64,000 nt of DNA. It comes from an uncultured virus (IMG/VR IMGVR_UViG_3300007734_000752) (taxonomy: Duplodnaviria; Heunggongvirae; Uroviricota; Caudoviricetes). A program made the position numbers and the translations under genes. The notes below the pieces were generated by a model that did not search any database, was not told the DNA's origin, and saw only the letters and a program-made list of their open reading frames with translations. Position 1 is the first letter of the stretch; each line of letters opens with the position of its first letter. Positions 7,587 to 64,000 of the stretch are shown in pieces. The stretch lies in IMG/VR virus record IMGVR_UViG_3300007734_000752; one strand, 5' to 3'.

Positions 7587-7869
7587 GTTAGTTAGTGCCC
7601 ACTACCGCCAGCTGCAAAGTAAGCGCCCACTAACTGGACTGGTAGTTAGTGCTTACTAGCTTGTAAGTTAATGCTCACTAACCTGGAAGTAAGTGCTTGC
7701 TAATGCTGCAATGCAGCATAAGTAAGCGCTCACTAACTTGTGTGTAAGCGCCCACTAACTTTGAAGTAAGCGCCCACTAACATAGATGTGAGTGCTTACT
7801 AGCTTGTAAGTTAGCGCTTACTAACTTGGAGGTGAGTGCTTACTAGCTTGGAAGTGAGTGCCCACTAAC
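7587..7869. repeat. Tandem array of 12 quasi-palindromic sites, mostly 22-bp period, resembling SlmA-binding sites
   Basis: Cores (e.g. GTAAGCGCTCAC, GTGAGTGCTTAC) start at 7591, 7619, 7645, 7667, 7689, 7722, 7744, 7766, 7788, 7810, 7832, 7854. Confidence 0.9.
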
Positions 7870-8034
7870 ATGGGGGGCGCCAGGGCCTTGCGCTGGCCGT
7901 GTCGGCCACGGCATCGTTTGTAAACAATTTTTATTTTTAAAAGTATCTTGCAAGCACTTAGCTTGCGCCCGTACATCTGATAGGTCAAATAGGCCAAATG
8001 GACAACACGTTTAAGTCCGTGGTATAACGCAGCC

Positions 8035-20288: not shown

Positions 20289-22065
20289 CCTCAACATCAC
20301 CAACATCCCCGCGCCAAGGGTGCCGTTCATTGACGAACGCACCGGCCTTATGGCGCGGGAATGGTATCGTTTTTTTCTTAATCTTTTTGTCCTGACCGGC
20401 AGCGGTAATAACCCTATCACGCTGGAAGAATTGCAGCTTGGGCCACCTAACCAGCCTGACCTAGCCGAGCTGCTGATTCAGATCAATCAGAACATCGCCC
20501 CGCAATACGAAGATCAATCGGGCGATTTTCTAGCCACGCTCGACACCGCGCAACTGATGTCGATGATGTCGCAGTTTGCAAATGCAGAAGCGGCCATCCA
20601 AGGGGCGTATCTTCAGCCGGTTGTGCAGACCGGCACCATTGCCAACTACAACCTTGACGGTAGCCCAACGGCGGGTGGCATAGCCTACGGCACCGGGCCA
20701 GCACTTGCGGTAAGCGCAGCGGGCACATTGGGCCAGGTGCTAACCAGTGCAGGTGCGGGAACGCCAACATGGGCGGCACCTACAACCGGCACTGTATCCA
20801 GCGTGTCGGTGGTGTCGGCCAACGGGCTGGCTGGAACCGTAGCGACAGCAACCACAACCCCAGCGATCACGCTCTCCACGACCATCACCGGGCTGCTCAA
20901 GGGCAACGGCACCGCGATCAGCGCGGCCACCAGCGGCACAGACTACGCGCCGGCAACCAGTGGCACCTCGATCCTCTACGGCAACGGGGCTGGCGGGTTC
21001 AGCAACGTCACCATCGGATCCGGCGTTGCCTTTGCTGGCGGCACTTTGTCTGCGACCGGCTCGGGCGGCACTGTAACGAGCGTGACCGGAACGGCACCCG
21101 TTGTGTCGTCTGGTGGTGCTACGCCTGCAATCTCAATGGCCGCTGCAACAACGAGTGTTAATGGTTACTTGACCAGCACCGACTGGACAACCTTTAACAA
21201 CAAGCAAGCCGCGCTGGTCAGCGGCACCAACATCAAGACAGTCAACGGCACGACACTGCTTGGCTCTGGCGATCTTGGCACGATCACCTATGCTTACGGC
21301 GGCACCGGCCAGACGACCGTCACAACCGGCGATCTGCTCTACGGCTCGGCATCAAATGTCTGGTCAAAATTGGGTATCGGCACTACAGGCCAGATTTTGC
21401 GTGTTGTGTCCGGCGCACCGGCTTGGGGAACGGATTACGTTGGCACCGTGACTAGTGTAGGCGGCACCGGAACGGTCAACGGCCTGACGCTGACTGGCAC
21501 TGTCACCAGCTCTGGCAATCTGACGCTAGGTGGCACGCTTGATCTATCCTCGCCTCCGGCTATTGGCGGAACATCAGCGGCAAGTGGCAAATTCACCACA
21601 TTAAGCGCGTCAGATACCATTACTCCAAGTCAAACTACCGGCATTGTCGGCACAACAACCACAAATGACGCACAGGCGGGGAGTGTCGGTGAATCCATTA
21701 TGTCTAGCTCTGCGCTCACAAATTACCCTGCGACCGGCACTTGGGGCGATCTAACTGCAATCTCTTTGACTGCTGGTGATTGGGATATTGCTGCGGTGAC
21801 TCAGCAAACTACACCAGGCACAATGACTGGCGAGACTCGGCTAGGAATTTCGGTCACATCTGGTAATTCTGCAACTGGTTTGACTATAGGCTATAACCGG
21901 TTAACCTTTCCAAATGCAACAGTAGCTGCTGATTCTGGTGCTTCAATTCCGATGTATCGTTTGCAACTTGGGTCAACAACAACGGTATACCTTAAATTTT
22001 TTACAGAATACAGCACCGGAACGCCAAAAGCACTTGGAACAATCATTGCACGACGCAGACGTTAA
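20281..22065 (+). CDS. Tail fibre protein
   Basis: Gly/Thr/Ser-rich GTVTSV repeats; likely start at ATG 20281. Confidence 0.8.
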   Translation: MPNLNITNIPAPRVPFIDERTGLMAREWYRFFLNLFVLTGSGNNPITLEELQLGPPNQPDLAELLIQINQNIAPQYEDQSGDFLATLDTAQLMSMMSQFANAEAAIQGAYLQPVVQTGTIANYNLDGSPTAGGIAYGTGPALAVSAAGTLGQVLTSAGAGTPTWAAPTTGTVSSVSVVSANGLAGTVATATTTPAITLSTTITGLLKGNGTAISAATSGTDYAPATSGTSILYGNGAGGFSNVTIGSGVAFAGGTLSATGSGGTVTSVTGTAPVVSSGGATPAISMAAATTSVNGYLTSTDWTTFNNKQAALVSGTNIKTVNGTTLLGSGDLGTITYAYGGTGQTTVTTGDLLYGSASNVWSKLGIGTTGQILRVVSGAPAWGTDYVGTVTSVGGTGTVNGLTLTGTVTSSGNLTLGGTLDLSSPPAIGGTSAASGKFTTLSASDTITPSQTTGIVGTTTTNDAQAGSVGESIMSSSALTNYPATGTWGDLTAISLTAGDWDIAAVTQQTTPGTMTGETRLGISVTSGNSATGLTIGYNRLTFPNATVAADSGASIPMYRLQLGSTTTVYLKFFTEYSTGTPKALGTIIARRRR

Positions 22066-29245: not shown

Positions 29246-30062
29246 GATGTTTCCTCAAGTTGTCTGGAGTTAAATTTTTAGGTTCAGGAACAAGACTGCT
29301 TGTCATGTTTTTAATTTCTATTTGAGATGGTAAGCAAACCAATAGTCTTTGCAGTATTTTTAATGATGCTTTTTGTCCTGGTTCATCTGGATCTAACCAA
29401 ATAATTACTTTTTTAAAATTACTTAGTTTGTTTATTGTTGTGTCTGATATAGATGTTTTTAATAACGCCACTGAAGAATAAGGAGATTCTTTCCATACAC
29501 GATAAGCACTTGTATAGTCTTCAGTAATAGCTATTACATCTCCACCCCTATTCAGCCAAGATACATCTTCATCTGCTTTTCTGTAATATATTGTTTTATA
29601 TTTAGATCTGCTTGGATCAAATGTTCTTAGTTGATAGCCATATTGTTTGTTACCAAAATCAAAAATGGGAAGATAGAGTTGACCACAAAATTCTTTAAAA
29701 TGTTGTTTGTCTTCTTCGGTACTTATTGGGTATATGTGGTGTTTATGTAGCCAGCTAATAATACTAGTACTACATACATCTTTAGGTTTAAAAGTAACCC
29801 CTTCAATAATACGCACTACTTTTGGCATGTCGTCTATTTCGTTAAACAACCACTTCCTGAGCACTGTGCCATCAGTAGAAAGCTCTCGCCAAAACCCATG
29901 ATTAGAACAATGGTGACAGTACGCCACCACTCCTCCAACCACGTGTTTAATATAGAGCCTCTTCTTACGATCTACGCCAGCATCACAGTCTTCATGATCT
30001 ATGTTTATCTGCTCTCCTATAGCTAATTTGCTATAGGATTGCAGTAACTTTTTATCAATCAT
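29235..30062 (-). CDS. DNA primase (zinc finger + TOPRIM)
   Basis: HEDC...CHHC, ITED, WLDPDEPG. Confidence 0.85.
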   Translation of the reverse strand: MIDKKLLQSYSKLAIGEQINIDHEDCDAGVDRKKRLYIKHVVGGVVAYCHHCSNHGFWRELSTDGTVLRKWLFNEIDDMPKVVRIIEGVTFKPKDVCSTSIISWLHKHHIYPISTEEDKQHFKEFCGQLYLPIFDFGNKQYGYQLRTFDPSRSKYKTIYYRKADEDVSWLNRGGDVIAITEDYTSAYRVWKESPYSSVALLKTSISDTTINKLSNFKKVIIWLDPDEPGQKASLKILQRLLVCLPSQIEIKNMTSSLVPEPKNLTPDNLRKHLGL

Positions 30063-31192
30063 TAGGACGTTTTAGTGCCGTAGATTTTACGGAAAAGTTC
30101 TTTAGAGACTTTTTGTTGTGTTTCAGTAAGCTTGTTTGTGTAAGAAAGATCAATAGCAGTAGTTAGGGCATAGCCATATACGTATTTCTTACAGATTGCT
30201 TGAAGTGCTCTGGGGGACATTGTGAGTGTAAATTGCCCAGAAGAATATCCCTGACGAATTAGATTGGCAAACTTAACCAAGTTCTTGATCCAGTCGCTAG
30301 GAATACTTGAAAACTTACCACTGAGCATCTTACATTCAACAGCTTCAGGCATGTAACTCATTTTTACTGTGGTTCCAAACCGATCTAACGTAGCTGTATT
30401 CTGTACGTTTGTGCCACTATGAGCACCTGTATCATCGCCTTGTCCTTGTGTATTACCAAGAGCAACAATGCGAAACCTGTTCTCAGGCGTAATAAACTTC
30501 TCAGCAGATGTTCCAGGCATCTCTTTAAGGAACAACTTACCTTTCTCTTCCAGAAGCCACTGGAGACCCATGCTGATCTCAGAAGGGGTAACGTCCCACT
30601 CATCCCAAGCAAACACGGCTCCGTAGCGTACAGCCTCTGTCAGAGTGCCATCTACCCAGTAAGTAGAACCATCTTTAGCTTGTTGCTGCCCAAAGATCAT
30701 TGAGCTGTCCATATCGCCTGTGCAGTTCAACCGAAAGAACGGGCGACAGGTATAAGCACAAAGCTGTTCAATGCAAGAACTCTTACCTGCTGCTGTTGGG
30801 CCGTACACTAGCACTTTATCGTTGTTTTCCCAAGCTAGCAGAATGTCTTTGGTAACTGTTGCATTAAGAACATAGTCGGGGTCTACGTCTGGAATGAAAG
30901 CTCGAATACGTTCATCCCAATCTTCCGGCTTATACACAGCAACTGGAAAACTAGAATCAAAAGTAAGTAATGGAAACAACTTCTTTGCATCTACATGTTT
31001 TTCACTAACATGAAACTCAGGTGTTACTGTAGTAACTTTTTTAGTTGGTACTGCTTCAGGCGAAGACAAATCAAGCGGATCATCCTCAAATACAGGAGTA
31101 GTGGCTTTCTCTGTTAATGTACGTTTGGTTAGAGCATCTTTGATAGCATCTTTAACCAAATCTTCAACAGGTTTAACTAAAAGGCTAGTCAT
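30062..31192 (-). CDS. CobS/MoxR-like AAA+ ATPase
   Basis: GPTAAGKS, WDEWD, ATLDRF, MSPR. Confidence 0.88.
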   Translation of the reverse strand: MTSLLVKPVEDLVKDAIKDALTKRTLTEKATTPVFEDDPLDLSSPEAVPTKKVTTVTPEFHVSEKHVDAKKLFPLLTFDSSFPVAVYKPEDWDERIRAFIPDVDPDYVLNATVTKDILLAWENNDKVLVYGPTAAGKSSCIEQLCAYTCRPFFRLNCTGDMDSSMIFGQQQAKDGSTYWVDGTLTEAVRYGAVFAWDEWDVTPSEISMGLQWLLEEKGKLFLKEMPGTSAEKFITPENRFRIVALGNTQGQGDDTGAHSGTNVQNTATLDRFGTTVKMSYMPEAVECKMLSGKFSSIPSDWIKNLVKFANLIRQGYSSGQFTLTMSPRALQAICKKYVYGYALTTAIDLSYTNKLTETQQKVSKELFRKIYGTKTS

Positions 31193-33071
31193 TTAGTAAT
31201 TTCCTCTCTATAAGTTCAAGTAACTTGGTGGGTATTTCTTCTGGCGTATTCACTGTAGAACAGTGTTTGTAATACCTAAATACTGACTCATCACACAAAC
31301 CTAAACCATATATCTCAACTCGTTTGTTTTTTTCTATCTCTTGTATTACTTGTTTTGTATACGGTGCTAAACCACTACAATGACGACTTGCAGAAGGTTG
31401 CCCGTCAGACATTACAATTAACAACCGTTTCTTTTCTTTGCGCCTAACAAGTCTGTCGTATGCCCAAAGAATTGAATCACCATCGGGATTGCCTGTCATA
31501 TGCGCTGAACTTGCACCTATGTTTTTAATTAAGTCTTCTTTAGATACTCTTAGAGCTGCAAAAGATTTATAAACATAGCTAATTGGATGAAACATATCAG
31601 TGCTGCCTGAGTGCATATCAGTAAAACCAAGAATCTCAACAGGGACTTTAAGAACATTAAATACTTCATTAAGAAGAACAGCAGCTTCACAAGCAAATAA
31701 CACCTTATCTCCAGCCATACTTCCTGACATATCAATTAACACAGTTACAGAAGCATCAAGAACAGTATTAGTAACTTTCTTTTTAAATATGCGTTCAGAA
31801 AATCCAGGCACTTTAAGTGCCAATCTAGCTAACCTTGCGTAGTCCATTTTGCCTTGCTTGGTGCCATACTCATACTGGCTTTTTGCTCGTATTTGGATTA
31901 ACCGACGTACTTGTTGAGCAAAATTATCAATACGGGCTACTTTACTTTCAACTCTATCGTTAAAATTTCTAATAAAAAACTTAGCACATCCTGTTTCTTT
32001 GTTTAGAAGCCCTACTACTTTGCCGGTTGTAGTGGTATCTTTTATATAATCAACAACTTCAAAGTCATCAACTGAGGCAGAAGGCCACTCATCTGATATG
32101 CCTGATTCATCTATGGCATAAAGAAGACCAGTCTTATTCATGCGTTCTTCATTTACTGTGTCGTGTGTAGATACAAGTTTTGTGTCTACGTCTTTAATTT
32201 CTACACGAATAATTTTCCACTCATCTTCAGTGATTTTCTTAGGCTCATCGCTTGATTTAGCAGTTTCAGGTTTACCTAAACTTTCTTCTTCTGGGCCTTT
32301 TTTGTCAGTTATTGCTGGTTTTTCTACTGGTTTGTCGTCTTCTGTTTTTGTTTCTGTTGGTTTCTCCTTCGGAGATTCTTTTTCTTCTTTTTCAGGTGGT
32401 TTGGGAGATTCCTTAACTCGTTTCTCCTCACCGTCAGGATCGCCTCCTAAAGCCCTAAAGATGTCTTTGGCTAGGTCATAGGTCATTGCTGACCCTATCT
32501 TCTTTCTAGGCTCTTCCTGAGCGTCCAGGAGCCTATTTGAAAAGGGTTCTAGAGTTTTATCTATCTCCTCATTAGTTTTAAACCTACTTCCAGACAGCTC
32601 ACACTGAGGAAACAACCTAGAACTAATTCTGGTATCCCACTTAATAAGGGATTTGATGATTTTGTTTAAAGGACTAGCTTCTTCTTCTGTTTTTCCCCGT
32701 ATTTTGTCAAGTATGAGAGGACAAGACTTATCCCAAAGCTCCCTAAACCCTTCATATTCAGTTGCTTCCAAGGCGTTAACCCTAGAATCTTCTAGAATAT
32801 TCCAGATAAAACCAAGAGGGCTTGTATCAGCACTTATTTTCTTTTCTCGAAGAATCCCAAAGTCTGAATACAGATCATGAGCTACTTCGTGATCTGTACT
32901 AGCCATGATGTCGTCTAACTGCTCTTGGGTTGTGTGCAAAGTAATTCTTGGCAAGTAGATTGTTTCTCCATCGTGCCTTGGTTGGCACTTATCTTCAAAT
33001 ACAACTCGGAGATTTGCTCTGCCTGCTGAAGCTTTTACGTACCTAGCTACGTCTAAGCCCTGAAGTAACAT
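31185..33071 (-). CDS. CobT-like protein: N-terminal HExxH domain and C-terminal vWA
   Basis: DHEVAH, NILEDSR, MIDAS DMSGSM, MSDGQP. Confidence 0.85.
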   Translation of the reverse strand: MLLQGLDVARYVKASAGRANLRVVFEDKCQPRHDGETIYLPRITLHTTQEQLDDIMASTDHEVAHDLYSDFGILREKKISADTSPLGFIWNILEDSRVNALEATEYEGFRELWDKSCPLILDKIRGKTEEEASPLNKIIKSLIKWDTRISSRLFPQCELSGSRFKTNEEIDKTLEPFSNRLLDAQEEPRKKIGSAMTYDLAKDIFRALGGDPDGEEKRVKESPKPPEKEEKESPKEKPTETKTEDDKPVEKPAITDKKGPEEESLGKPETAKSSDEPKKITEDEWKIIRVEIKDVDTKLVSTHDTVNEERMNKTGLLYAIDESGISDEWPSASVDDFEVVDYIKDTTTTGKVVGLLNKETGCAKFFIRNFNDRVESKVARIDNFAQQVRRLIQIRAKSQYEYGTKQGKMDYARLARLALKVPGFSERIFKKKVTNTVLDASVTVLIDMSGSMAGDKVLFACEAAVLLNEVFNVLKVPVEILGFTDMHSGSTDMFHPISYVYKSFAALRVSKEDLIKNIGASSAHMTGNPDGDSILWAYDRLVRRKEKKRLLIVMSDGQPSASRHCSGLAPYTKQVIQEIEKNKRVEIYGLGLCDESVFRYYKHCSTVNTPEEIPTKLLELIERKLLND

Positions 33072-36964: not shown

Positions 36965-37276
36965 TTAAGAGATAGGGTATTTAGGATCTAGTTTATTGTC
37001 CCAACGATTTTCGTATCGTCCTTTCCAAGCTCTACCTGGCTCCGCTTGAAAGTCGCTGTTACTAGTAACAAGTTCAAACAAGTGTTCGTAATCACATTGT
37101 TTGTACGAGGTACCGTAGAACTGCATGTACTCTTTTACTTGCTCACGAGTAAGAGCATGTTCTACTACCCGCACTCCGTTATTGAAGAGGAAGTCAGATA
37201 CTCCGTGGGCAGCTATGTTTGCTGCCATGAGCATCCCTTCTTTGGGATCTTTGTAGCTGATGATGTTGTAGAGCAT
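36965..37276 (-). CDS. Hypothetical early protein
   Basis: GGAG RBS. Confidence 0.6.
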   Translation of the reverse strand: MLYNIISYKDPKEGMLMAANIAAHGVSDFLFNNGVRVVEHALTREQVKEYMQFYGTSYKQCDYEHLFELVTSNSDFQAEPGRAWKGRYENRWDNKLDPKYPIS

Positions 37277-37290
37277 TGTTGGTCTCCAAT

Positions 37291-37320
37291 AAAAAAAAAG
37301 AAAAGGGAGCCGAAGCTCCC
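37291..37320 (-). terminator. Intrinsic terminator with a UUCG loop
   Basis: Minus strand GGGAGC-TTCG-GCTCCC followed by TTTTCTTTTTTTTT. Confidence 0.85.
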
Positions 37321-37337
37321 CTTTCGGGGATTACCCT

Positions 37338-37571
37338 TTACTCGACTCGCTTGGCACGCTCCGCAGCTTGTGCCTTACCTTTCTCTTTGATCTCCACCAA
37401 CTCGTTTATAACGCCCTTAAGATCCATGCCGAGGGGATTGTCGTAACGATACATCACGTAATCAACATCCTTCAGCAGCCCAAGCGCTAAGTGAAGCTTC
37501 AACCCAGATCCAGCTTCCCGTGTCATATTGTTGAATGCTTTGAAGTCAAAGTTGTTTTGATTAGCAGCCAT
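37338..37571 (-). CDS. Hypothetical first early protein (start MAANQNN)
   Basis: GGAG RBS before the ATG at 37571. Confidence 0.6.
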   Translation of the reverse strand: MAANQNNFDFKAFNNMTREAGSGLKLHLALGLLKDVDYVMYRYDNPLGMDLKGVINELVEIKEKGKAQAAERAKRVE

Positions 37572-37603
37572 TTTGTTTCTCCGTTTGTTTATGTTTCTTG
37601 AGG

Positions 37604-37948
37604 GAAGCCCCCTCGCAGAAAGCCCCCCAACACACACCGCCGAAGCTACGGAAAGAAGCCCTTATCACGGCAGGCAGACATGCCTTGCGGGGTTTCGAGA
37701 CCGAGATATACCGGAGGACACGAAGGCGGGACGGTGCCGACGAAGGAGGACACCGCCAGCCGTAGTGCCGGAGGATATGCTCTCGGTTGAGCCGCTAGGC
37801 GATGGCTGCGTGCAAGCCTACGTAGTTGCGCCTAGCCCTCGCCAAGCGAAGCGCAGGACGAGGGGTTGGACGCGTAGGCTGGTGTGATTCCCCAGCAGGT
37901 CTTACGAAGTACGGCTATCACCCGACTGGGGGGGGCTGCGGGGGCTTC
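37604..37948 (+). ncRNA. Candidate multi-helix structured RNA of about 345 nt (or ssDNA structure)
   Basis: GC-rich island closed by a long-range stem, with nested helices, two GAA/GUA internal loops and G-U pairs on the + strand. Confidence 0.55.
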
Positions 37949-38325
37949 AATCAAGATACGTAAACGTTAAACGGGGATACAAAATGTTTGGCTGGTAATC
38001 AAATACAACACCGACTACAAAGCCCCCAATTATGTGACTGGGGGAATGCAGGTTCTGGTCGTATGAAAGCTGAACAAGCATTGGGCTACTGAGGGAACGT
38101 TGACGAAGCGATGTGTCAATACGACTCCCAAGGCTTGAATCACCAGGAAGCGTTATAAGGGGTCTGGAGGAATCAATAGGGATAGGTGATGGCTCACCCA
38201 GGGGCATTGCCTAGCAGTCGCAAGCAGGCCATCCCTGATGGGGTACAAGGCCATGTCTGTGTAGGGATAGTAGATGCTAGTCTATGGGGTAACAGATGGA
38301 TAGTTAGTGGGAGTAATAGATAAGG

Positions 38326-38407
38326 TAAGTCATTGAGTTATAAGGTGATTGCAATAAAGCCCTTTATAATTAAGGACTTACGTCACTTATCCACAGACTT
38401 ATCCACA
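38326..38407. promoter_or_regulatory. Two perfect DnaA boxes plus two IHF-like sites
   Basis: TTATCCACA at 38387 and 38399; 12/13 matches to WATCAANNNNTTR at 38326-38338 (-) and 38368-38380 (+). Confidence 0.6.
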
Positions 38408-38694
38408 GGTTATAGAGCTGAATACATCAGCCCCTTGTGGTCAGCTACCCCCATCTTCCCTGGCTGAGTAGTGTGTATGGGGAGGGAAAAGAATTCTTTT
38501 ATATATTTTATATATAACAACTTATAACTACTCTTATAGTTTATAAACAAGGGGAGGTATATAACTACTATAGTAGTAATAATAATACAACACTATAAAA
38601 ACACTACTACAGTACATATACTATATATAACTACTATATATAGTACTACCCTAGAGTCTCAATCCCGTAAGGGCCTAAATAGAGAAGATACAAT

Positions 38695-38733
38695 CCTTAC
38701 GCCAACCTTACAGTTGGCTTACAAAAACCTTAC
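38695..38733. repeat. Four (C/G)CTTAC direct repeats at an 11-bp period
   Basis: Starts at 38695, 38706, 38717, 38728. Confidence 0.7.
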
Positions 38734-38882
38734 AAAGGCTTTTGCCATCCTTATAAAGTGACTGCCTTCTTTTTTTAATTTTTTTTTGGAAAAAACAAAA
38801 AGCCCTTTTAAAGGGGGAATTTGCTTGTTCCCTCAAAACTGTGGTTTACTTCAAACCTTATCTAGTTATGGGGTTTGTAGCA

Positions 38883-57643: not shown

Positions 57644-58912
57644 ATGCCAATGTTAATGACAGAGATTGAGCAAGGACAAAAAGCTGCCCTCAATCTAGAT
57701 CTAAATCCCTATCGTGCTCAAGCAGAGTTAGAGCGCATACCTCTTGAAACACAGAAATTACAACAAACTCTTGAGACTGGAAAGACTACTCAAGCAACTG
57801 CTGCTTTACAGTTAAGAGCACTCTTAAGTGAAGAGCAAAGTAACACTCAGTTTAAGACTGCTGTAGAGCAAATGGTTAAGTCTGGCGGGCTTGATAGTAC
57901 ACGACCCATTTCTGAGCAAGCCTTAAAACTATCTCAGATTGCTTACGGGCAAGGTAACTTTGATTTGGGCAGGAAATTTAGTGCTGATGGTGAAAGAGCA
58001 ACTCAGCATGAAGCACAAGCTGAAGTTAATACTTATAAGATAGGACAAAGAAAGTTAGAAACTTTGGGCACTCTTTTAAAAACTCTAGCTCCTGATGGTA
58101 GTGATTTAGATTCTGCTATAAATAGTGGAATTAAATTAAAGTTGCTGCCCCCGGAACAACTTGAAAGTTTTAGAGAACAAGGTAAACAAGCTATTGCTAT
58201 TAGCCCAGCAGCCTATACTGCTTGGCAAGCTGGTCTAACTAAAAAATTAAGAACACACGAACAAGAAAAAATAGCTGTTGAAGAAGCAAAATTAGCTGCA
58301 AAAATCATTGAAGATGAAAAAAAAGATAAGTTAAATACCCGTAGATTTGAAGCTCTACTTAGTCAACGAGGTGCTGCTCGAACTAGCGGAGATGATAGAG
58401 CAGCAGTACGCTTAGATACAAACATGTTAGCAAGTGCTCGTAGGCAACTAGAATACATTACTGACGACATTAGGGACGTAGATCGTGAGCTAGCAAAACT
58501 TCCCCCTAAACCTACTACAACTGAATGGCTTAGTAGCAAAGTAGTAGCCGACCCCAATGCTGAGGCTAGAAAAGAGCTGCTTGACAGAAAAACTATACTT
58601 AAAGAGCGACAAGAAAAATACGCAAAAGAAGAAGCAGAAGCTCTTAAGAACTTACGTAAAGATGGTGGTAAAGACAAAACTTCAGAACCAAAAACAAACG
58701 ATGCGCCTCCTGCTTCCTTTACGCCAGAAGGCAGAAATACTTTTGATACTCGTCCCGCTTCTCCTAATGTAGCAGCACCTACTGCTCCTGCTACTTCTGG
58801 GTTAATACGTCCTGCCGATGTGCCTAGAGATTGGGTAGTACGACAAGACGGTAAGGGAAACAGAGCTTGGGTAAGTCCTGATGGCAAACAATTTAAAGAG
58901 ATAACAAGATAA
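57644..58912 (+). CDS. Internal virion protein
   Basis: Gln/Lys/Ala helical; AAGGA RBS; position. Confidence 0.65.
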   Translation: MPMLMTEIEQGQKAALNLDLNPYRAQAELERIPLETQKLQQTLETGKTTQATAALQLRALLSEEQSNTQFKTAVEQMVKSGGLDSTRPISEQALKLSQIAYGQGNFDLGRKFSADGERATQHEAQAEVNTYKIGQRKLETLGTLLKTLAPDGSDLDSAINSGIKLKLLPPEQLESFREQGKQAIAISPAAYTAWQAGLTKKLRTHEQEKIAVEEAKLAAKIIEDEKKDKLNTRRFEALLSQRGAARTSGDDRAAVRLDTNMLASARRQLEYITDDIRDVDRELAKLPPKPTTTEWLSSKVVADPNAEARKELLDRKTILKERQEKYAKEEAEALKNLRKDGGKDKTSEPKTNDAPPASFTPEGRNTFDTRPASPNVAAPTAPATSGLIRPADVPRDWVVRQDGKGNRAWVSPDGKQFKEITR

Positions 58913-61900
58913 TGGCCTTTGATCTCTCTACTGCTAGGCCCATTGATGAATCTCGCCCTAGTAGCGCGGGGGGATTTGATCTATCTACTGCTCGTCCTAT
59001 AGACGACCCTACTGTTACTAGTAACACAGACGCAGGAGCTTTATCTGCTTTTGGAAGTGGTGCTGCTACTGGAGTTGTCCCTGGGCTAACTGGTTTAGCT
59101 GGATTTGGTGCTGGGATGAAAGCCTCTGCCCCCTACGCACTGAGGGCTGCTGCTGCGTTTCCTGTACCACATCCACTAGCTAAAGCTGCTGTTGGTGGTG
59201 GAGTAGCTCTTCTTGGTGGGTTTGCTGGTGCAGGAATAGGCGGCGGTGTAGCTTCTATAGCACAAGACATGCTTTACAAGATTGTAGATCCAGAAGGATA
59301 CGCTAAAAACAAGCTTGCTCAAGCACAACATCCTACTGCCTATGGAATAGGTAACATAGTAGGCAGCTCTGTAGGTATGAGTCCTAAAGCTCTACCTGAA
59401 ATAGCGGGCAAAGTCTTTACTAAGCCTGTAGTTCAACGTGGAGTTAGTGCTGGACTAGGTGGTGGAATAAACGTAGCACAACAAGCTATGACTAAAGACC
59501 ACATAGATTGGACAGAAGCCGCTGCTGCTACTGCTGTTGGTGCTGCTCTTCCAGGGTTTAATCCTTTAGGTAGTGCAGCTTTTCGTGCTGGAGAACGGCT
59601 TGTTCCTGGGAGTCGTCAACCTGTTGAGATGGGTATTGGGCCTAGAGACCCTGAGCCTGAAGTAGCTTCACCAGGTATTACTCCTAAGCCACCAGAGCCT
59701 CCTGCCCCCACTAGGACAGAGGCGACTGGTCGTATTGACGCTAATCTACGTGAGGCAGAACTATCTACAGATCCAGGTAAGAGGCTTAAAGAAGCTGCTT
59801 TTAAAGATACTGGTAACAATGACACCATTATTCCCCAAGGAAAAGGTCATGATGATTTTCTTAAAACAGATCCTAGGTTAGAACGAGGCTACTTAACAGA
59901 AGACAATACTTTTGTTACTCCCCAAGAAGCTAAGATTATTGCTGAGAACCAGCACTCTGATTTGCTTACAAAGGGCGTTGATCCTAAAGAAGGATTTCAT
60001 TCTACTGACTTTGGCCCTGAGCGCATGGATGCGCTTAAGCCCAAAGAAGAATCTAAGTCTGTTGCCCAAGAACTAGGAATACGTAACGACAGCAGAAGTA
60101 ATTTCTTTGAAGACGTAGAAAACTACAAACTTAGCCTATTAGACAAAGAGCAAAAGCTGGATAGTGCTGCTGCTTCTATGTCTCAAGAAGATCTTATTGC
60201 TGCCAATAGTGCTCTAGCTGCTGAGAAAACAAAACTAGCTGAAGCTAGCAAAGAAGTTCCAGAACTAATAATTAAAGACAAACAAAAAGCTACTTGGCAA
60301 GAAACTCATGATGTTTTAGCAGGAGCTAAAACTATTGGTGAGGGTATAGATCGTTTGCTAAAAGAAGGAGTTGGCAGCAAGACTGTCCAACTAACGCTTA
60401 GGGTTTTAGGGCAATCAAAGTATATCCGTGATGCAGATCTTTCTATAAGCAGTGAAGCCAAACTTATAGATGGAAGACCTGCTCTTGGTCAATACATCAG
60501 CGGAGGAGCCAGTAAATCTCATGAAACTCGGCTATATGAAGGTGGCGGGCTAGGTACTTTTATTCATGAAGCAGTTCATGCTGGAGCACAACGTCTTCTT
60601 TATAACAAAACATCTGAGGCTGCAAAAGAACTAATTAAAATATTTAAAAAGTTTGAAGATATTGGAGAAGGTGAATACCAAACTGCACTAAAACAACACC
60701 TTATAGATAATCCTAATGCTACGCCTTTTGAATTAAACGAGTTTAGTTATAAAAATAGGCGCTACGGACTAACTGATGTTCATGAATTTGTTTCTGAAGC
60801 ACTAAGTAACCATAACTTTAAACAGTTCTTGTCTGAGTTTAAATCAGACGGTTCTAATGGAGTTGCTAGTAACTTATGGAAAGACCTTAAGAACAGCATC
60901 TATGATGGTCTTGGAGTTCCTAGAAAAGATCGTACTGCATTAGATGATGTGTTAGGACACACAGAGACTCTTTTAAAAGAATCTGAAAACTTTACTAGAA
61001 GTGAGTTAGATGGCAGAAGCTTGCCTTCTAAAGGCTCAGCTCCTTTTGAATCTATTGGTGATACGGGCATAATTAAAGAAGCTTATGCTAAATTAAAAAC
61101 TTGGAGTAAAGACAGAGAACAAAAAATAATAAATAATCACACTAATGATTACGGCACTATTGTTAACGATAAAGAATTAAAATCTGATCTTGATCGACTT
61201 AAAACAGAAAGTCTTTTTGAATACAAAAGAATTAAAAACGAGTTATTAGAAAATAAAAATAGAAAATTATTTTCTGAATTAAAAGAAAACGAAGTAGTTC
61301 ATTACACACCAGAAGAAAACATACCTTCTATATTAGAAGGCGGCTTAGACACAACCAAGCCCCCTAAATTTTCTTTTGGAAACGACTCCAGTGGGAAAAT
61401 GGGGCCAGAAGGAACCTATTACTTTACTAAAGACATAGTACAGTGGGCATTTCACGGTAAAGAACGTACTGGAATGAGTCGTGTAAAAGCAACTTTAGAG
61501 CCTAATTTAAATATACTAACTATAGACTCCATAGATGCTGCAAAAAAAGCTGGACTTGAGAAAGATAGCGTAAGTGACTTTATTAGTGGTGCTAAAAATA
61601 ATGGTTATGATGGTGTAAGGTTTAAGTATTCTGAAGAAGGTTGGAAATCTGATTATGAGTATAGCCAGTGGACTGGTGGCAGTGGTAAAGATGATTTTTT
61701 AATATTTAATAAAGACTCTTTTGTTTCTAATGAAAAAGGTAATCCTAAATTAACACTAGCTTCTAGAAGTACTGACGCACCCGGTGCACCTACTTCTGCT
61801 GTAGGCCCCAAACGCTATGATCCGCGCAATGTAGTTGACGAAGCAGACCTTAAAATTAAAGGTAAAGAACTCTATGCTGCTGAAGGTGCTGATGCTGCTC

Positions 61901-64000
61901 GTAAATTCTTTACTGACTATGAAACCTATAGAGATACTTGGCTTAATCCTGTTAAAGAGGTTGAGGATTTTGTAGAGATCAACATTAATAACAAGATGGC
62001 TGATGAGAGGATTGTTATTAATAACAGTAACGACCTCAAGGCTTTAGTACCTGATGCTGTTGCTAGGGAACAAGTTTCTATAGCTATTGATGCTAAGAAT
62101 ACAAAGTCTCTTACAGGTGCTGCTAAAGAAGCAGCGGATAAATATACTGGCTGGATGAAAGACATTGGAGAACGCGCTTTAAAAGAAGGGGTTGTTAAAG
62201 GACTTCTTGAGAACTACGTTACTCACATTGTTAACTGGAAAGACTTGCCCAAAGGAGCTTTGGATACATTTCTTGCTGATGTATTTGGTAAGAAGTTTGA
62301 AGGTGAACCAAGCGGCATGACGCCAGAAAGCAGGTTTGGTAAAGAACGTACTGTAGAAACCTTTCATCAATTAGATCTGGCCCTAAAATACATAAATGAA
62401 CGTATAGAAGCGGCGGGTAAGTCTGACTTTAGGTTAGAAGTTAAGACTAAAGATATTGCAGAAATTTATAAACAATACGCATCTTCAATGGAGAAAGCCA
62501 TTGAGAACAAGAAGCTTGTTGATAGTGTTCGTCAAATTAGAAATGTAAAGGGAGAGTCTTTAGTACGTAGAATTACTGAAGAAGACCCCCTGCCTCGTGG
62601 TTGGACAACAATTGATGATCGACAGTTTGCTGGCTTTGCAGTACACCCTGACCTTGCTCCTGCCCTTAAGTTTGCTTTTGAAGCTAAAGGCGGGATGATC
62701 TTAAATGCTCTCTACAATGTTTCTCAAATAACTAAACGTTTAAATGTTATAGCTTCTTTGTTCCACGCAAAAAGTCTTATGGAAGTGCTTAACAGCACCC
62801 ATACTCCTATAGTTACGCCAATAAAAGAGATTGCTCTTGGTATAACTGACAAGTCACTAGGAACAGAATTATCTGGAATTAGAAAAGCAGTCAATGAGTT
62901 TAAAGAAGGTGGGTTAGGCAGTAGTGTAGACAAATGGCAACGTGGTGGGCTGGTTCTTGAAACACCTGGCGATGTTTCTAAGGGAGTGATTGCTAATGCA
63001 GGTAAGTTTGCTGACAGTATGATCTCTAAGTTTGGCCCTAAAACACACATACTAGAATCAGCACTTACTGCTACTGAGAAATACACCTTAGGCGTTTTTG
63101 ATAAAGTTACTTGGGACTACCTGCACACTGGCGGCAAGCTAATGACTGCTGAAGCCTACCTAACTAAGGCTAGAGAACAAGCAACTAAAGATGGTGTTCC
63201 TTTTGATGAAGCTGCTTCTCGTAAAGAAATAACAAGTTTCATTAATAAATCTTTTGGTGGATTAAACTGGTTTCAAGAAGCCCGTAGTGCTGAAACAGAG
63301 TTTGGCAAACGTATGGCTATGGCTGCGTATTCTCCAGAAGGACGTAAAGCTTTACAGATAATGTTGTTTGCTCCTGACTGGACTATCTCAACAATCAAAG
63401 CCTTTACCTCAGCTCTTCCTAAGGGGTTTAATCCCACTAAATGGCACCCCATAGAGGGAGTCAAGGGGATGGGTACACCTAGTACCCAAGCTGATTACGC
63501 TAGGTTGTATCAGTTTAAAACTGCTTTGACTTATTTGACTTTGATTAATGGCATCAATCTAATTACAGCAAACCGTCCTATTTGGGAGAACAAAGATCCA
63601 ACTCGTATTGAATGGCCTGATGGAACTAGTATGCAAGCCATGAAGCACGCTATGGAACCCTATCATTGGTTAGCTGACCCAACTAAAACCTTAAGCAATA
63701 AGCTGGGATTTGTGCCCAAATCTGCTGTTATTGGGCTAACAGGTAGTGAGTATGCAAGCCCAAGTGCTCCCAAATTAGTTGATCCTTCTCTAACTAACCG
63801 CGCTATTGCTATTGGTAAGCAAGCTTTGCCTTTCCAAATCTCTGCTGCTATGTCTGCACCAGAGGGGGAGGGAACTAAGAGAGCGTTACTAGGAACAATT
63901 GGGTTGCCTGTCTATGGGAAAACCGTAGAACAGCGTAAGATAGCTCGTAAAGAACGTTATGAAGCAGTACGTGAACAACGTGAAAAATACAGAGAACGTG
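58912..64000 (+). CDS. Large internal virion (ejection) polyvalent protein, 3'-truncated, more than 1,690 aa; absent from ORF track
   Basis: ATG at 58912 overlaps the previous stop; FDLSTARPID repeat; no stop in the stretches read by hand, open at the window end; HEAVH at 60565; ART-like domain 61294-61720. Confidence 0.85.
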   Translation, partial: MAFDLSTARPIDESRPSSAGGFDLSTARPIDDPTVTSNTDAGALSAFGSGAATGVVPGLTGLAGFGAGMKASAPYALRAAAAFPVPHPLAKAAVGGGVALLGGFAGAGIGGGVASIAQDMLYKIVDPEGYAKNKLAQAQHPTAYGIGNIVGSSVGMSPKALPEIAGKVFTKPVVQRGVSAGLGGGINVAQQAMTKDHIDWTEAAAATAVGAALPGFNPLGSAAFRAGERLVPGSRQPVEMGIGPRDPEPEVASPGITPKPPEPPAPTRTEATGRIDANLREAELSTDPGKRLKEAAFKDTGNNDTIIPQGKGHDDFLKTDPRLERGYLTEDNTFVTPQEAKIIAENQHSDLLTKGVDPKEGFHSTDFGPERMDALKPKEESKSVAQELGIRNDSRSNFFEDVENYKLSLLDKEQKLDSAAASMSQEDLIAANSALAAEKTKLAEASKEVPELIIKDKQKATWQETHDVLAGAKTIGEGIDRLLKEGVGSKTVQLTLRVLGQSKYIRDADLSISSEAKLIDGRPALGQYISGGASKSHETRLYEGGGLGTFIHEAVHAGAQRLLYNKTSEAAKELIKIFKKFEDIGEGEYQTALKQHLIDNPNATPFELNEFSYKNRRYGLTDVHEFVSEALSNHNFKQFLSEFKSDGSNGVASNLWKDLKNSIYDGLGVPRKDRTALDDVLGHTETLLKESENFTRSELDGRSLPSKGSAPFESIGDTGIIKEAYAKLKTWSKDREQKIINNHTNDYGTIVNDKELKSDLDRLKTESLFEYKRIKNELLENKNRKLFSELKENEVVHYTPEENIPSILEGGLDTTKPPKFSFGNDSSGKMGPEGTYYFTKDIVQWAFHGKERTGMSRVKATLEPNLNILTIDSIDAAKKAGLEKDSVSDFISGAKNNGYDGVRFKYSEEGWKSDYEYSQWTGGSGKDDFLIFNKDSFVSNEKGNPKLTLASRSTDAPGAPTSAVGPKRYDPRNVVDEADLKIKGKELYAAEGADAARKFFTDYETYRDTWLNPVKEVEDFVEININNKMADERIVINNSNDLKALVPDAVAREQVSIAIDAKNTKSLTGAAKEAADKYTGWMKDIGERALKEGVVKGLLENYVTHIVNWKDLPKGALDTFLADVFGKKFEGEPSGMTPESRFGKERTVETFHQLDLALKYINERIEAAGKSDFRLEVKTKDIAEIYKQYASSMEKAIENKKLVDSVRQIRNVKGESLVRRITEEDPLPRGWTTIDDRQFAGFAVHPDLAPALKFAFEAKGGMILNALYNVSQITKRLNVIASLFHAKSLMEVLNSTHTPIVTPIKEIALGITDKSLGTELSGIRKAVNEFKEGGLGSSVDKWQRGGLVLETPGDVSKGVIANAGKFADSMISKFGPKTHILESALTATEKYTLGVFDKVTWDYLHTGGKLMTAEAYLTKAREQATKDGVPFDEAASRKEITSFINKSFGGLNWFQEARSAETEFGKRMAMAAYSPEGRKALQIMLFAPDWTISTIKAFTSALPKGFNPTKWHPIEGVKGMGTPSTQADYARLYQFKTALTYLTLINGINLITANRPIWENKDPTRIEWPDGTSMQAMKHAMEPYHWLADPTKTLSNKLGFVPKSAVIGLTGSEYASPSAPKLVDPSLTNRAIAIGKQALPFQISAAMSAPEGEGTKRALLGTIGLPVYGKTVEQRKIARKERYEAVREQREKYRER

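What the first reader, a model, noticed from the sequence alone, without database searches (positions are those of the whole stretch)
37604..37948. Candidate novel structured RNA of about 345 nt at the head of the early arm
Seen: a GC-rich island closed by GAAGCCCCC..CGCAG..CCCCCCA pairing with TGGGGGG..CTGCG.GGGGCTTC. Nested helices include CACACC-GCC-GAA-GC / GC-GTA-GGC-T-GGTGTG, ACCGAG-ATAT..CCGG / CCGG..ATAT..CTCGGT, CAC-GAA-GGC / GCC-GTA-GTG, GCTAGGCG..TGGCTGCGT / ACGTAGTTG-CGCCTAGC, CCCTCG/CGAGGG and AGGCA-GACA-TGCCT. Two GAA/GUA (E-loop-type) internal loops, a GNRA loop and G-U pairs all favour the + strand, antisense to the early genes. AGCCTACG (about 37816) can alternatively pair with CGTAGGCT (about 37873), suggesting a switch or pseudoknot. 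I do not recognise the family. Alternatives: an ssDNA origin or promoter (a GCGAAGC mini-hairpin is present), or an antitermination element, since a strong terminator follows the first early gene.
Basis: partly seen in the sequence, partly recalled or inferred. Interest (0 to 1): 0.75.

Follow-up and report, generated by a model that had tools for sequence, protein, structure and literature searches.

The report
Folded core inside phage quasi-palindrome
A strongly folded, GC-rich 345-base stretch beside the first early gene of an uncultured freshwater phage is real and conserved. It is the centre of a 0.9-kb mirror-image repeat made of that gene and a decayed backwards copy of it. Its job, probably RNA-based control of early genes, is still unproven.

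Summary
Window 37604-37948 folds far better than shuffles on both strands (RNA z -5.4 and -5.1). Related phages carry a folded GC-rich island in the same slot, in six sequence types of 190-446 nt. In the alignable types, 11 of 44 consensus pairs show compensatory changes. In the closest pair the core changes far less than third codon positions.

1. The island is the core of a quasi-palindrome of about 880 bp. The left arm (37343-37612) is the whole first early gene with its ribosome site. The right arm (37940-38220) is a decayed inverted copy, 66-78% alike. The arms co-evolve within each genome over long times, but the right arm drifts at about the neutral rate over short times.

2. Strand asymmetry favours the + strand: unpaired bases are 37-50% A, there are GNRA and GNA loops, and tandem G.A loops.

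No + strand promoter was found, and the minus strand should be transcribed as the early leader. I favour a + strand countertranscript (0.35) over a leader-only element (0.30) or a DNA-level origin or recombination structure (0.20). No transcript data could be obtained.

The parts
37604..37948 (+). GC 0.64, closed by helices P1/P2, branched interior.
   Evidence: Folds. Covariation. In window vs L012, 340 of 345 alignment columns are identical, against 6-10% change at third codon positions.
37343..37612 (-). Left arm of the quasi-palindrome: the first early gene cassette (ribosome site plus whole ORF) and the 5' strand of P1.
   Evidence: Smith-Waterman against the reverse complement of 37940-38220: 206 of 291 columns identical, score 119, shuffles at most 26. 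blastn 70% over 254, E 2e-17. Distal part alone scores 60, shuffles at most 24.
37940..38220 (+). Right arm: decayed inverted copy of the first early gene, with stops and frameshifts, plus the 3' strand of P1.
   Evidence: tblastn of the gene-1 protein gives 48% over 27 aa with an in-frame stop. It differs from L012 at 24 of 273 alignment columns, about the third-codon-position rate.
37556..37612 (.). Best-paired inner stem, 5' half. It covers the Shine-Dalgarno (37579-37582), the start codon (37569-37571) and the first codons of gene 1. It pairs with 37940-38003.
   Evidence: the repeat finder I1, I3 and I5 are 85-93% complementary. MFE.
37338..37571 (-). First early gene, 77 aa, no known family. 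The model is a three-helix protein.
   Evidence: ORF and translation. 21 unnamed homologs without Pfam. AF2 pLDDT 85.3. No Foldseek match at E <= 0.001.
37300..37336 (-). Strong intrinsic terminator directly after gene 1. No room for a promoter before gene 2 (36965-37276).
   Evidence: scan_promoters_terminators: 11-pair stem with a T-run. Sequence.
37600..37614 (+). Small local hairpin GAGGG-AAGCC-CCCTC that competes with P1 for the C-run. Present in most types.
   Evidence: Read from the sequence. The same hairpin in L004 was flagged at 863-847.
38385..38408 (+). Two direct copies of ACTTATCCACAG (DnaA-box-like). No such box seen in type E (L005).
   Evidence: the repeat finder D7. L005 sequence.
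38696..38755 (+). Three iteron-like 17-nt repeats spaced 21-22 bp.
   Evidence: the repeat finder D1.
38481..38660 (.). AT-rich block with TATATAACTACTATA repeats, preceded by a GGGGAGGGAAAAG motif. Conserved across all types and, in part, in distant relatives. Origin-like or promoter-like.
   Evidence: Alignment A6..
38821..38850 (+). Candidate rightward promoter before the TerS-like gene: TTGCTT, 18 nt, TGgTTTACT.
   Evidence: Read by eye. The CTGTGGTTTACT block is conserved in A6. It did not pass the consensus scan.

Best explanation
The island is the conserved, independently folding core of a quasi-palindrome of about 880 bp at the head of the phage's early arm. One arm is the live first early gene. 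The other arm is a decayed inverted copy of it. My preferred reading is that the core is a structured RNA shaped by selection on the + strand. That makes it a rightward countertranscript, or rightward leader, running opposite to the early leader. Its 5' flank is the exact complement of the ribosome site and start codon of gene 1, so such an RNA would pair with the early mRNA. It would block translation of gene 1 and mark the duplex for cleavage, helping to switch early expression off. The matching right arm lets the RNA close on itself into a long stalk that frames the folded core. Shown: the fold, its conserved position, compensatory changes, low divergence of the core, the strand asymmetry and the arm architecture. 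Inferred: that the + strand is transcribed at all, where transcription starts, and the antisense action.
For: Fold z -5.4. A folded GC-rich island occupies the same slot in six sequence types of relatives. P1/P2 are fully re-written but still paired between the window and type B. 11 of 44 consensus pairs changed on both sides and 93.1% of cells are paired. 0 of 500 shuffles reach this, and slid controls give 1-5 pairs and 36-47% paired. Window vs L012: core 5 of 345 columns differ, against 6.1% and 10.4% at third codon positions of TerL and gene 1. Cues for the + strand: unpaired bases are 37-50% A and 7-19% U in 8 of 8 sequences. Loops include C[GAAA]G, C[GGAA]G, C[GUAA]G, C[GCAA]G, C[GAA]G and C[GGA]G. 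CGAAG counts are 5,3,3,1,0,1,1,3 and CUUCG is 0 in all. The + MFE is lower than the minus MFE in 8 of 10 sequences. Isolated G.U versus A.C mismatches are 11 versus 4, one sequence per type. RNAalifold gives + -25.0 (covariation -1.41) against minus -21.6 (+0.81). Purine content on the + strand jumps from 0.41-0.44 in the left arm to 0.54-0.60 in the core in 6 of 6 types. The core orientation relative to gene 1 is the same in all aligned lineages.
Against: No sigma-70-like promoter lies upstream on the + strand at a conserved place. Only weak hits at -80, -47, -31 and -11 in different types, and none in 3 of 9 sequences. No terminator follows on the + strand. Gene 1 needs a promoter to the right of the core, so the minus strand should be transcribed, whereas + strand transcription is only assumed. 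Covariation is as good for the minus strand: 12 of 43 pairs, score 0.299. G.U counts over whole MFEs do not favour either strand, and two sequences (L027, L004) go the other way. Most G.U cases are left-arm U with right-arm G, which the G-rich composition of the right flank could explain. Only six sequences in four deep lineages entered the covariation count, and the structure was derived from the same alignment. Cores of types E and F cannot be aligned to the window's core.
Confidence: 0.35

Rival explanations
1. Leader-only reading. The functional molecule is the leftward early transcript. The core and right arm form its long 5' leader, and the arm pairs with the Shine-Dalgarno, start codon and coding region of gene 1. 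This keeps read-in transcripts untranslated until they are processed, as in fold-back inhibition or the RNase III leader hairpin of lambda N. Alternatively the folded leader makes RNA polymerase read through the strong terminator after gene 1, a put- or nut-like antitermination.
For: No promoter-like site lies in the core or in the roughly 30 nt between P1 and the start codon, so the minus strand of the core should be in the early leader (inference). The inner stem covers SD, AUG and the first codons in types W, B, C, D and E, even where gene 1 proteins show no BLASTP similarity. A strong terminator follows gene 1 in the window and types B and E, with gene 2 directly behind it in the window. 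The minus strand folds at z -5.1 and has equal covariation support.
Against: On the minus strand the unpaired bases would be about 46% U and 12% A. GNRA and G.A motifs become pyrimidine loops. The minus MFE is weaker in 8 of 10 sequences. The right arm changes at about the neutral rate between close relatives: 24 of 273 columns against 6-10% at third positions. Compensation is 0 of 11 and 1 of 8 left-arm changes, which argues against steady selection for pairing. Type F has no arm.
Confidence: 0.3
2. DNA-level element. The quasi-palindrome with its hairpin-rich core belongs to the replication origin or a recombination hot spot. It would act as extruded or single-stranded hairpins, for example priming or loading signals as in the inverted ssi sites of RSF1010 oriV. 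The arms would be kept alike by gene conversion.
For: Both strands fold. The arms show concerted evolution over long times but neutral-like drift over short times, as episodic gene conversion predicts: window/B 49 compensated of 250 columns, E/E2 46 of 84 left-arm changes. Cumulative GC skew has its minimum here and purine skew flips at the core edge. DnaA-box-like repeats, iterons and an AT-rich block lie within 0.5-0.8 kb. The phage encodes PolA, a DnaB-like helicase, a primase and an exonuclease. The core is rich in C-GAA-G mini-hairpins.
Against: The skew flip also coincides with the switch in gene direction. Arms only 66-78% alike would not extrude as a cruciform. No process that would expose the + strand specifically was identified. 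No initiator binding sites are evident in the core. More distant relatives with the same AT-rich block lack the core.
Confidence: 0.2
3. Fossil or selfish insert. The core is a foreign or mobile GC-rich insertion, and the arms are a by-product of fold-back or template-switch duplication at its strong hairpin, with no present function.
For: The GC content is alien to the surroundings (0.64 against about 0.40-0.48). Size and sequence turn over quickly between types, 190 to 446 nt. The right arm drifts like a neutral sequence. The element is absent from deeper relatives.
Against: There is a single copy in the window, and no match in phage or plasmid collections. The position and orientation are fixed in all carriers. 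The core is far more conserved than third codon positions in the closest pair. No repeated unit lies inside. Retaining about 0.6 kb of junk in several lineages of a 44-46 kb phage is unlikely.
Confidence: 0.1

Closest known systems
Countertranscript (cis-antisense) RNAs covering a ribosome site: P22 sar, IS10 RNA-OUT, R1 CopA, ColE1 RNA I (recalled, not from a call)
   Same: A folded RNA made from the strand opposite a leader and overlapping the SD and start codon of the first gene. Mirror-image structures exist on both transcripts.
   Different: Those RNAs are 60-110 nt with known promoters and terminators. Here the fold is 190-446 nt plus gene-length arms, no promoter or terminator was found, and no transcript has been shown.
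Fold-back inhibition and leader hairpins: IS10 read-through protection, hok fbi, lambda N-leader RNase III hairpin (recalled)
   Same: An upstream segment complementary to the SD and AUG of the downstream gene on the same transcript. As in lambda, it is the first early gene and is followed by a terminator.
   Different: Here the complementary segment is a decayed copy of the whole gene (240-320 nt) and encloses a conserved branched core. The strand cues point to the opposite strand.
HK022 put RNA and other cis-acting antitermination RNAs (recalled)
   Same: A structured RNA ahead of the first terminator of an early operon would explain how genes behind the terminator at 37300-37336 are reached.
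   Different: put is about 70 nt with two stem-loops. No sequence or model comparison was possible, and the strand cues disagree.
Inverted-repeat origins with single-strand initiation hairpins (RSF1010 oriV ssiA/ssiB) and ssDNA promoters (Frpo; passages of PMC11541004 read)
   Same: A large imperfect inverted repeat with GC-rich hairpins next to iterons and an AT-rich block, with strand-specific hairpin motifs.
   Different: Frpo needs -35/-10 boxes in the stem, and none were found here. Tailed phages inject double-stranded DNA. The arms here are a gene and its pseudo-copy.
Large ornate phage-borne ncRNAs such as GOLLD and ROOL (recalled)
   Same: A big, GC-rich, multi-helix non-coding RNA candidate in phage genomes with GNRA loops and unknown function.
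   Different: No Rfam match at any threshold used. It is smaller, confined to one freshwater phage clade, and framed by a gene-length inverted repeat.

Membership tests
Any Rfam 15 family (4227 models) | Covariance-model score at or above the family's gathering score | tested here: not met
   0 matches in the window. Only tRNAs in five related loci. At E <= 10 nothing lies inside 37604-37948. One chance-level miRNA hit (E 0.42) falls in the type F core. Nothing at E <= 1 in types B, C, D and E.
tRNA / tmRNA (a GGAATTCGAC-like word prompted the check) | ARAGORN or Rfam detection of a tRNA-like domain and tag reading frame | tested here: not met
   No tRNA or tmRNA in the window. Only tRNA-Ile elsewhere in L028 and L029.
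Cis-antisense countertranscript | Own promoter on the strand opposite the target leader | tested here: not met
   No conserved sigma-70-like site on the + strand left of the core. The host and its promoter consensus are unknown, so this is weak negative evidence.
Cis-antisense countertranscript | Overlap with the SD and start codon of the target | tested here: met
   The paired region starts at 37556 and covers SD 37579-37582 and ATG 37569-37571.
Cis-antisense countertranscript | A transcript of the + strand exists | not testable with these tools
   No RNA run was listed for this sequence.
Fold-back / leader sequestration of a ribosome site | An upstream segment on the same strand complementary to SD and AUG | tested here: met
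   Arms 37569-37586 / 37969-37986 are 89% complementary and 37556-37570 / 37989-38003 are 93%. The same holds in types B, C, D and E.
Fold-back / leader sequestration of a ribosome site | The complementarity is under selection | tested here: inconclusive
   There is long-term co-variation of the arms. Between close relatives the right arm drifts at about the neutral rate, with 0 of 11 and 1 of 8 left-arm changes compensated.
Frpo-type ssDNA promoter | -35 and -10 hexamers formed within the stem, next to the expressed gene | tested here: not met
   No promoter-like site in 37200-38600 except one on the minus strand at 38662-38633. The relaxed scan also found none in the stems.
N4-type hairpin promoters for a virion RNA polymerase | The phage encodes a virion RNA polymerase | tested here: inconclusive
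   No Pfam family matched the large ORF 58912-63999 (1696+ aa) and PHROGs gave only one family of unknown function at 4e-07. Its only PDB sequence hit is an ejection protein at E 0.0096. No fold was run. C-GRA-G triloops are present on the template strand.
MITE / transposable element | Several copies, terminal inverted repeats and target-site duplication | tested here: not met
   Single copy in the 64-kb window. No match in phage or plasmid collections. The 'terminal repeats' are a gene and its pseudo-copy. No host genome is held.

The most novel reading that the evidence does not exclude
This would be a new class of phage control module, a 'gene in a hairpin'. A fast-evolving ornate RNA core of 190-446 nt is framed by a gene-length stalk. 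One strand of the stalk is the live first early gene and the other a pseudo-copy, kept alike by repeated gene conversion. The early gene, its antisense partner and a structured RNA would then form one self-complementary unit that times or silences the first gene expressed after infection.
Probability: 0.25. Interest if true: 0.8.

Novelty: new variant of a known kind. Interest (0 to 1): 0.62.

Why it matters
Large structured non-coding elements in phages are few and mostly unexplained. This one sits at the junction between early and structural arms, where early expression, and probably replication, are set. If RNA-based, it adds an unassigned structured RNA with an unusual frame: a live gene paired to its own decayed mirror copy. 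That would give a tractable case of how phages time their first gene. If DNA-based, it marks an origin or recombination structure for a poorly known clade of freshwater phages. The arm-to-arm concerted evolution is also a clean natural example of inverted-repeat homogenisation in a small genome.

Tried and rejected
- Rfam at the gathering and E-value thresholds gave nothing for any type.
- tRNA/tmRNA: none.
- blastn of the region against phage records and of the core against plasmid records: no match.
- No whole genome is held for the window.
- RNA runs: no RNA holder listed.
- My first motif scan was mis-specified, with one N too many, and found nothing.
- The corrected scans found only known relatives plus chance hits: 2 of 4 loci were chance, as read. 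In one search, 21 of 25 were chance or coding, as read.
- Neither more distant TerL relative in GenBank (2 of 2 examined) nor the one in a genome bin has a GC-rich core.
- N4-like promoter idea: no RNA polymerase was recognised. No fold was run.
- Frpo-like idea: no -35/-10 in the stems. Passages of PMC11541004 were read.
- REP-like or repeated hairpin units: none.
- Extra copies in the window: none.
- Promoter scans on both strands gave no positionally conserved site.
- Gene-1 protein: no Pfam or PHROG, 21 unnamed homologs, three-helix model without a structural match.
- The DnaA-box-like repeats are absent in type E, so they are not a conserved part.
- Two literature searches on palindromes and fold-back inhibition gave nothing pertinent; only the listings were seen.
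- Earlier scan notes by place and by sequence returned nothing.

Full report
**Context.** From about 22 kb onward the window is a phage of about 44 kb.
- A leftward arm (24.1-37.6 kb, minus strand) encodes an exonuclease, a family-A DNA polymerase, a DnaB-like helicase, a primase, a CobS/CobT-like pair and many small ORFs.
- A rightward arm starts with a TerS-like gene (38868), followed by TerL (40680) and a portal gene.
- Near-identical and related genomes of 44-47 kb exist in metagenomes. Two IMG/VR records are rated complete.
- The finding lies in the 1.3-kb gap between the two arms.
- The first early gene is 37338-37571 on the minus strand (77 aa). Its SD is at 37579-37582, and I corrected its start from my first guess.
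- A strong terminator at 37300-37336 follows it, with gene 2 directly behind.

- 37604-37948 folds at -166.4 kcal/mol on the + strand (z -5.41, 0 of 100 shuffles as good) and -160.9 on the minus strand (z -5.09).
- DNA parameters give z -5.48 and -4.67.
- The alternative 8-mer pairing partners exist.
- Nothing in Rfam matches, at the gathering thresholds or at E <= 10 inside the element. There is no tRNA or tmRNA.
- Phage and plasmid collections hold nothing similar.

**Relatives.** Flanking proteins and TerL brought in related loci. A folded GC-rich island occupies the same slot, starting 30-55 nt from the start codon of the first early gene. It comes in six sequence types:
- W: the window, and L012 at 98.8%.
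- B: L002, L013, L015. The core is 89% like W over 274 nt, but the closing helices are completely different in sequence and still paired.
- C: L003, L017. Shorter.
- D: L029, L027.
- E: L005, L006, L004. About 190 nt and not alignable to W.
- F: L028. About 446 nt.

Three more distant TerL relatives keep the AT-rich block but have no GC-rich core: two GenBank phages and one contig in a genome bin.

**Covariation and constraint.**
- On the six alignable sequences (W, L012, B, C and two D, so four deep lineages), the RNAalifold consensus has 44 pairs.
- 11 pairs changed on both sides and 93.1% of cells are paired. No shuffle of 500 reaches this. Sliding the partners gives 1-5 such pairs and 36-47% paired.
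- Caveat: the structure was derived from the same alignment, and the sample is small.
- Between the window and L012 the core differs at 5 of 345 columns. Several are matched length changes in the C-run and G-run of P2.
- Third codon positions differ by 6.1% in TerL and 10.4% in gene 1. This suggests purifying selection on the core in that pair.
- For the two D sequences the core differs at 20 of 248 columns, close to the 9.5-9.7% at third positions, so the constraint is not shown there.

**The element is larger than reported.**
- The inverted repeat continues outward: 37556-37612 pairs with 37940-38003 at 85-93%. This covers the SD, the start codon and the first codons of gene 1.
- Further out, the whole left flank 37343-37612 aligns to the reverse complement of 37940-38220. 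206 of 291 columns are identical, and the Smith-Waterman score is 119 against at most 26 in 100 shuffles.
- The distal parts alone, leaving out about 70 nt next to the core, still score far above noise:

| Sequence | Distal score |
|---|---|
| W | 60 |
| B | 145 |
| C | 66 |
| D (L029) | 33 |
| D (L027) | 39 |
| E | 125 |
| E2 (L004) | 209 |
| F | 16 (noise) |

  Shuffles reach at most 24-30 and the direct-orientation control gives 14-35.
- blastn gives E 2e-17 to 4e-64 for W, B, C, E and E2, and nothing for D and F.
- The arms stop at the terminator and do not extend further.
- The right arm is a pseudo-copy of gene 1. tblastn finds 48% over 27 aa with an in-frame stop in W, 41% over 58 aa with a stop and a frame change in E, and a fragment in B. 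It finds nothing in C, D and F.
- So the locus is [gene 1 cassette] - [core] - [decayed inverted gene 1 cassette], about 880 bp in the window.

**How the arms evolve.**
- Within a genome the arms are 66-78% alike. That is more than the same arm between types.
- For W against B, left-left identity is 57%, right-right 39% and cross-genome left-right 44-50%. 49 of 250 columns changed in both arms together, and 2 are shared old mismatches.
- For E against L004 the cores are 165 of 189 columns identical, but the left arms only 184 of 303. 46 of 84 left-arm changes are matched in the right arm, all along its length.
- Between close relatives the picture is different. 0 of 11 (W/L012) and 1 of 8 (the D pair) left-arm changes are matched.
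- In those close pairs the right arm changes at 24 of 273 and 60 of 256 columns. That is at or above the third-codon-position rate.
- I read this as episodic homogenisation (gene conversion or re-duplication) followed by near-neutral decay, not steady selection for pairing. Type D would be nearly decayed, and F has lost the arm or never had one.
- This weakens any model that needs the full-length arm duplex. The inner roughly 60 bp could still matter: in the first 50 columns outward of P1, identity is 36-37 of 50 in W, C, B and E2, 32 in E and 28-31 in D.

**Which strand.** Covariation cannot tell. The minus-strand consensus does as well: 12 of 43 pairs changed on both sides and 86.7% of cells paired. 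Other cues favour the + strand.
1. Unpaired bases are 37-50% A and only 7-19% U in 8 of 8 sequences of all six types.
2. Hairpin loops include four canonical GNRA loops closed by C-G, and many GAA or GGA triloops. On the minus strand only one loop becomes a canonical UUCG.
3. CGAAG occurs 5, 3, 3, 1, 0, 1, 1 and 3 times, and its complement never.
4. The GAA/GUA internal loops become pyrimidine mismatches on the other strand.
5. The + MFE is lower in 8 of 10 sequences, by 37 kcal/mol in type B. L027 goes the other way and L004 ties.
6. Isolated G.U against A.C mismatches are 11 against 4, one sequence per type.
7. The RNAalifold covariation term is -1.41 for + and +0.81 for minus.
8. Purine content on the + strand flips from 0.41-0.44 to 0.54-0.60 exactly at the left edge of the core in 6 of 6 types.

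Points against the + strand:
- Whole-fold G.U counts are balanced.
- Most wobbles are left-arm U with right-arm G, which the G-rich right flank could produce without selection.
- I found no positionally conserved + strand promoter and no + strand terminator.
- Gene 1 has no room for a promoter between the core and its SD, and the core holds no promoter-like site. The early promoter must therefore lie to the right, and the minus strand of the core should be transcribed as a leader. This step is inference.

**Explanations.**
- I put about 0.65 on an RNA-level function. Within that I slightly prefer a + strand countertranscript or rightward leader (0.35), because only it accounts for the consistent RNA-like asymmetry and the fixed orientation of the core. 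It would be antisense to the ribosome site of gene 1, and the right arm would give it a closing stalk.
- The leader-only model (0.30) has the natural transcript. It also fits the gene order leader - gene 1 - terminator, which invites fold-back silencing, RNase III processing or put/nut-like antitermination. But it leaves the asymmetry and the neutral drift of the arm unexplained.
- A DNA-level origin or recombination structure (0.20) fits the arm dynamics, the folding of both strands, the skew minimum, and the nearby DnaA-box-like repeats, iterons and AT-rich block. No mechanism exposing the + strand was identified.
- A functionless insert (0.10) is disfavoured by the conservation of the core, its single copy and its fixed position.

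**Not testable here.** No RNA run was listed, and the tool that could fetch DNA for the 21 further gene-1 homologs was closed. The strand and the transcripts remain open.

**Known families.** All named resemblances (sar, RNA-OUT, CopA, RNA I; IS10 fold-back inhibition, hok, lambda N leader; HK022 put; RSF1010 ssi; GOLLD/ROOL) are recalled from memory, not tested. The exception is Frpo, for which I read passages of PMC11541004. Its defining -35/-10 in the stem is not met.

**Earlier notes of this scan.** The notes from other genomes describe GC-rich folded islands at the head of leftward prophage operons, and a 'framed' fast-changing core. They are analogies only and were not tested here.

Noticed in passing
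window 1-22070: The left part of the window has a much higher GC content (0.52-0.64 against about 0.42). It carries its own set of phage genes: family-A polymerase, primase, RusA-like resolvase, TerL, portal, major head protein and an Hc3-like connector. The window therefore seems to hold two related phage genomes or a chimeric contig. The boundary is unclear: a relative of the second phage still matches 21082-21199.
   Followed up: partly
window 7600-7870: The divergent intergenic region of the first, high-GC phage has about ten copies of a 17-nt repeat (AGTAAGCGCCCACTAAC and variants) in both orientations. It has no GC-rich folded core, so it looks like an iteron or operator array.
   Followed up: no
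window 38385-38408: Two exact direct copies of ACTTATCCACAG (DnaA-box-like). They are present in types W and C but absent in type E.
   Followed up: partly
window 38696-38755: Three iteron-like 17-nt repeats (CTTACnnnnnCCTTACA) at 21-22 bp spacing, upstream of the TerS-like gene.
   Followed up: no
window 38470-38660; L032 4840-4870; L033 5250-5270: A G-run motif (GGGGAGGGAAAAG and variants) is followed by AT-rich TATATA repeats. It is conserved across all six types and recognisable in two distant GenBank relatives that lack the core. It is probably the conserved origin or promoter block of this phage group.
   Followed up: partly
L028 4321-4399; L029 4316-4393: Types D and F carry a tRNA-Ile (GAT) between the AT-rich block and the TerS-like gene. 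The window does not.
   Followed up: no
window 30062-33071: A CobS-like AAA ATPase and a CobT-like protein sit side by side in the early arm.
   Followed up: no
window 58912-63999: An open reading frame of at least 1696 aa runs off the window. It has no Pfam family. It has a weak PDB sequence hit to a phage ejection protein (E 0.0096). Relatives are 1505 and 1893 aa, with a well conserved C-terminal half and a divergent N-terminal half.
   Followed up: partly
window 38023-38044: A hairpin CCCCCAGTCACATAATTGGGGG with a weak T-rich tail lies on the minus strand just outside the inner stem. It was flagged as terminator-like. I did not find it in type C.
   Followed up: no
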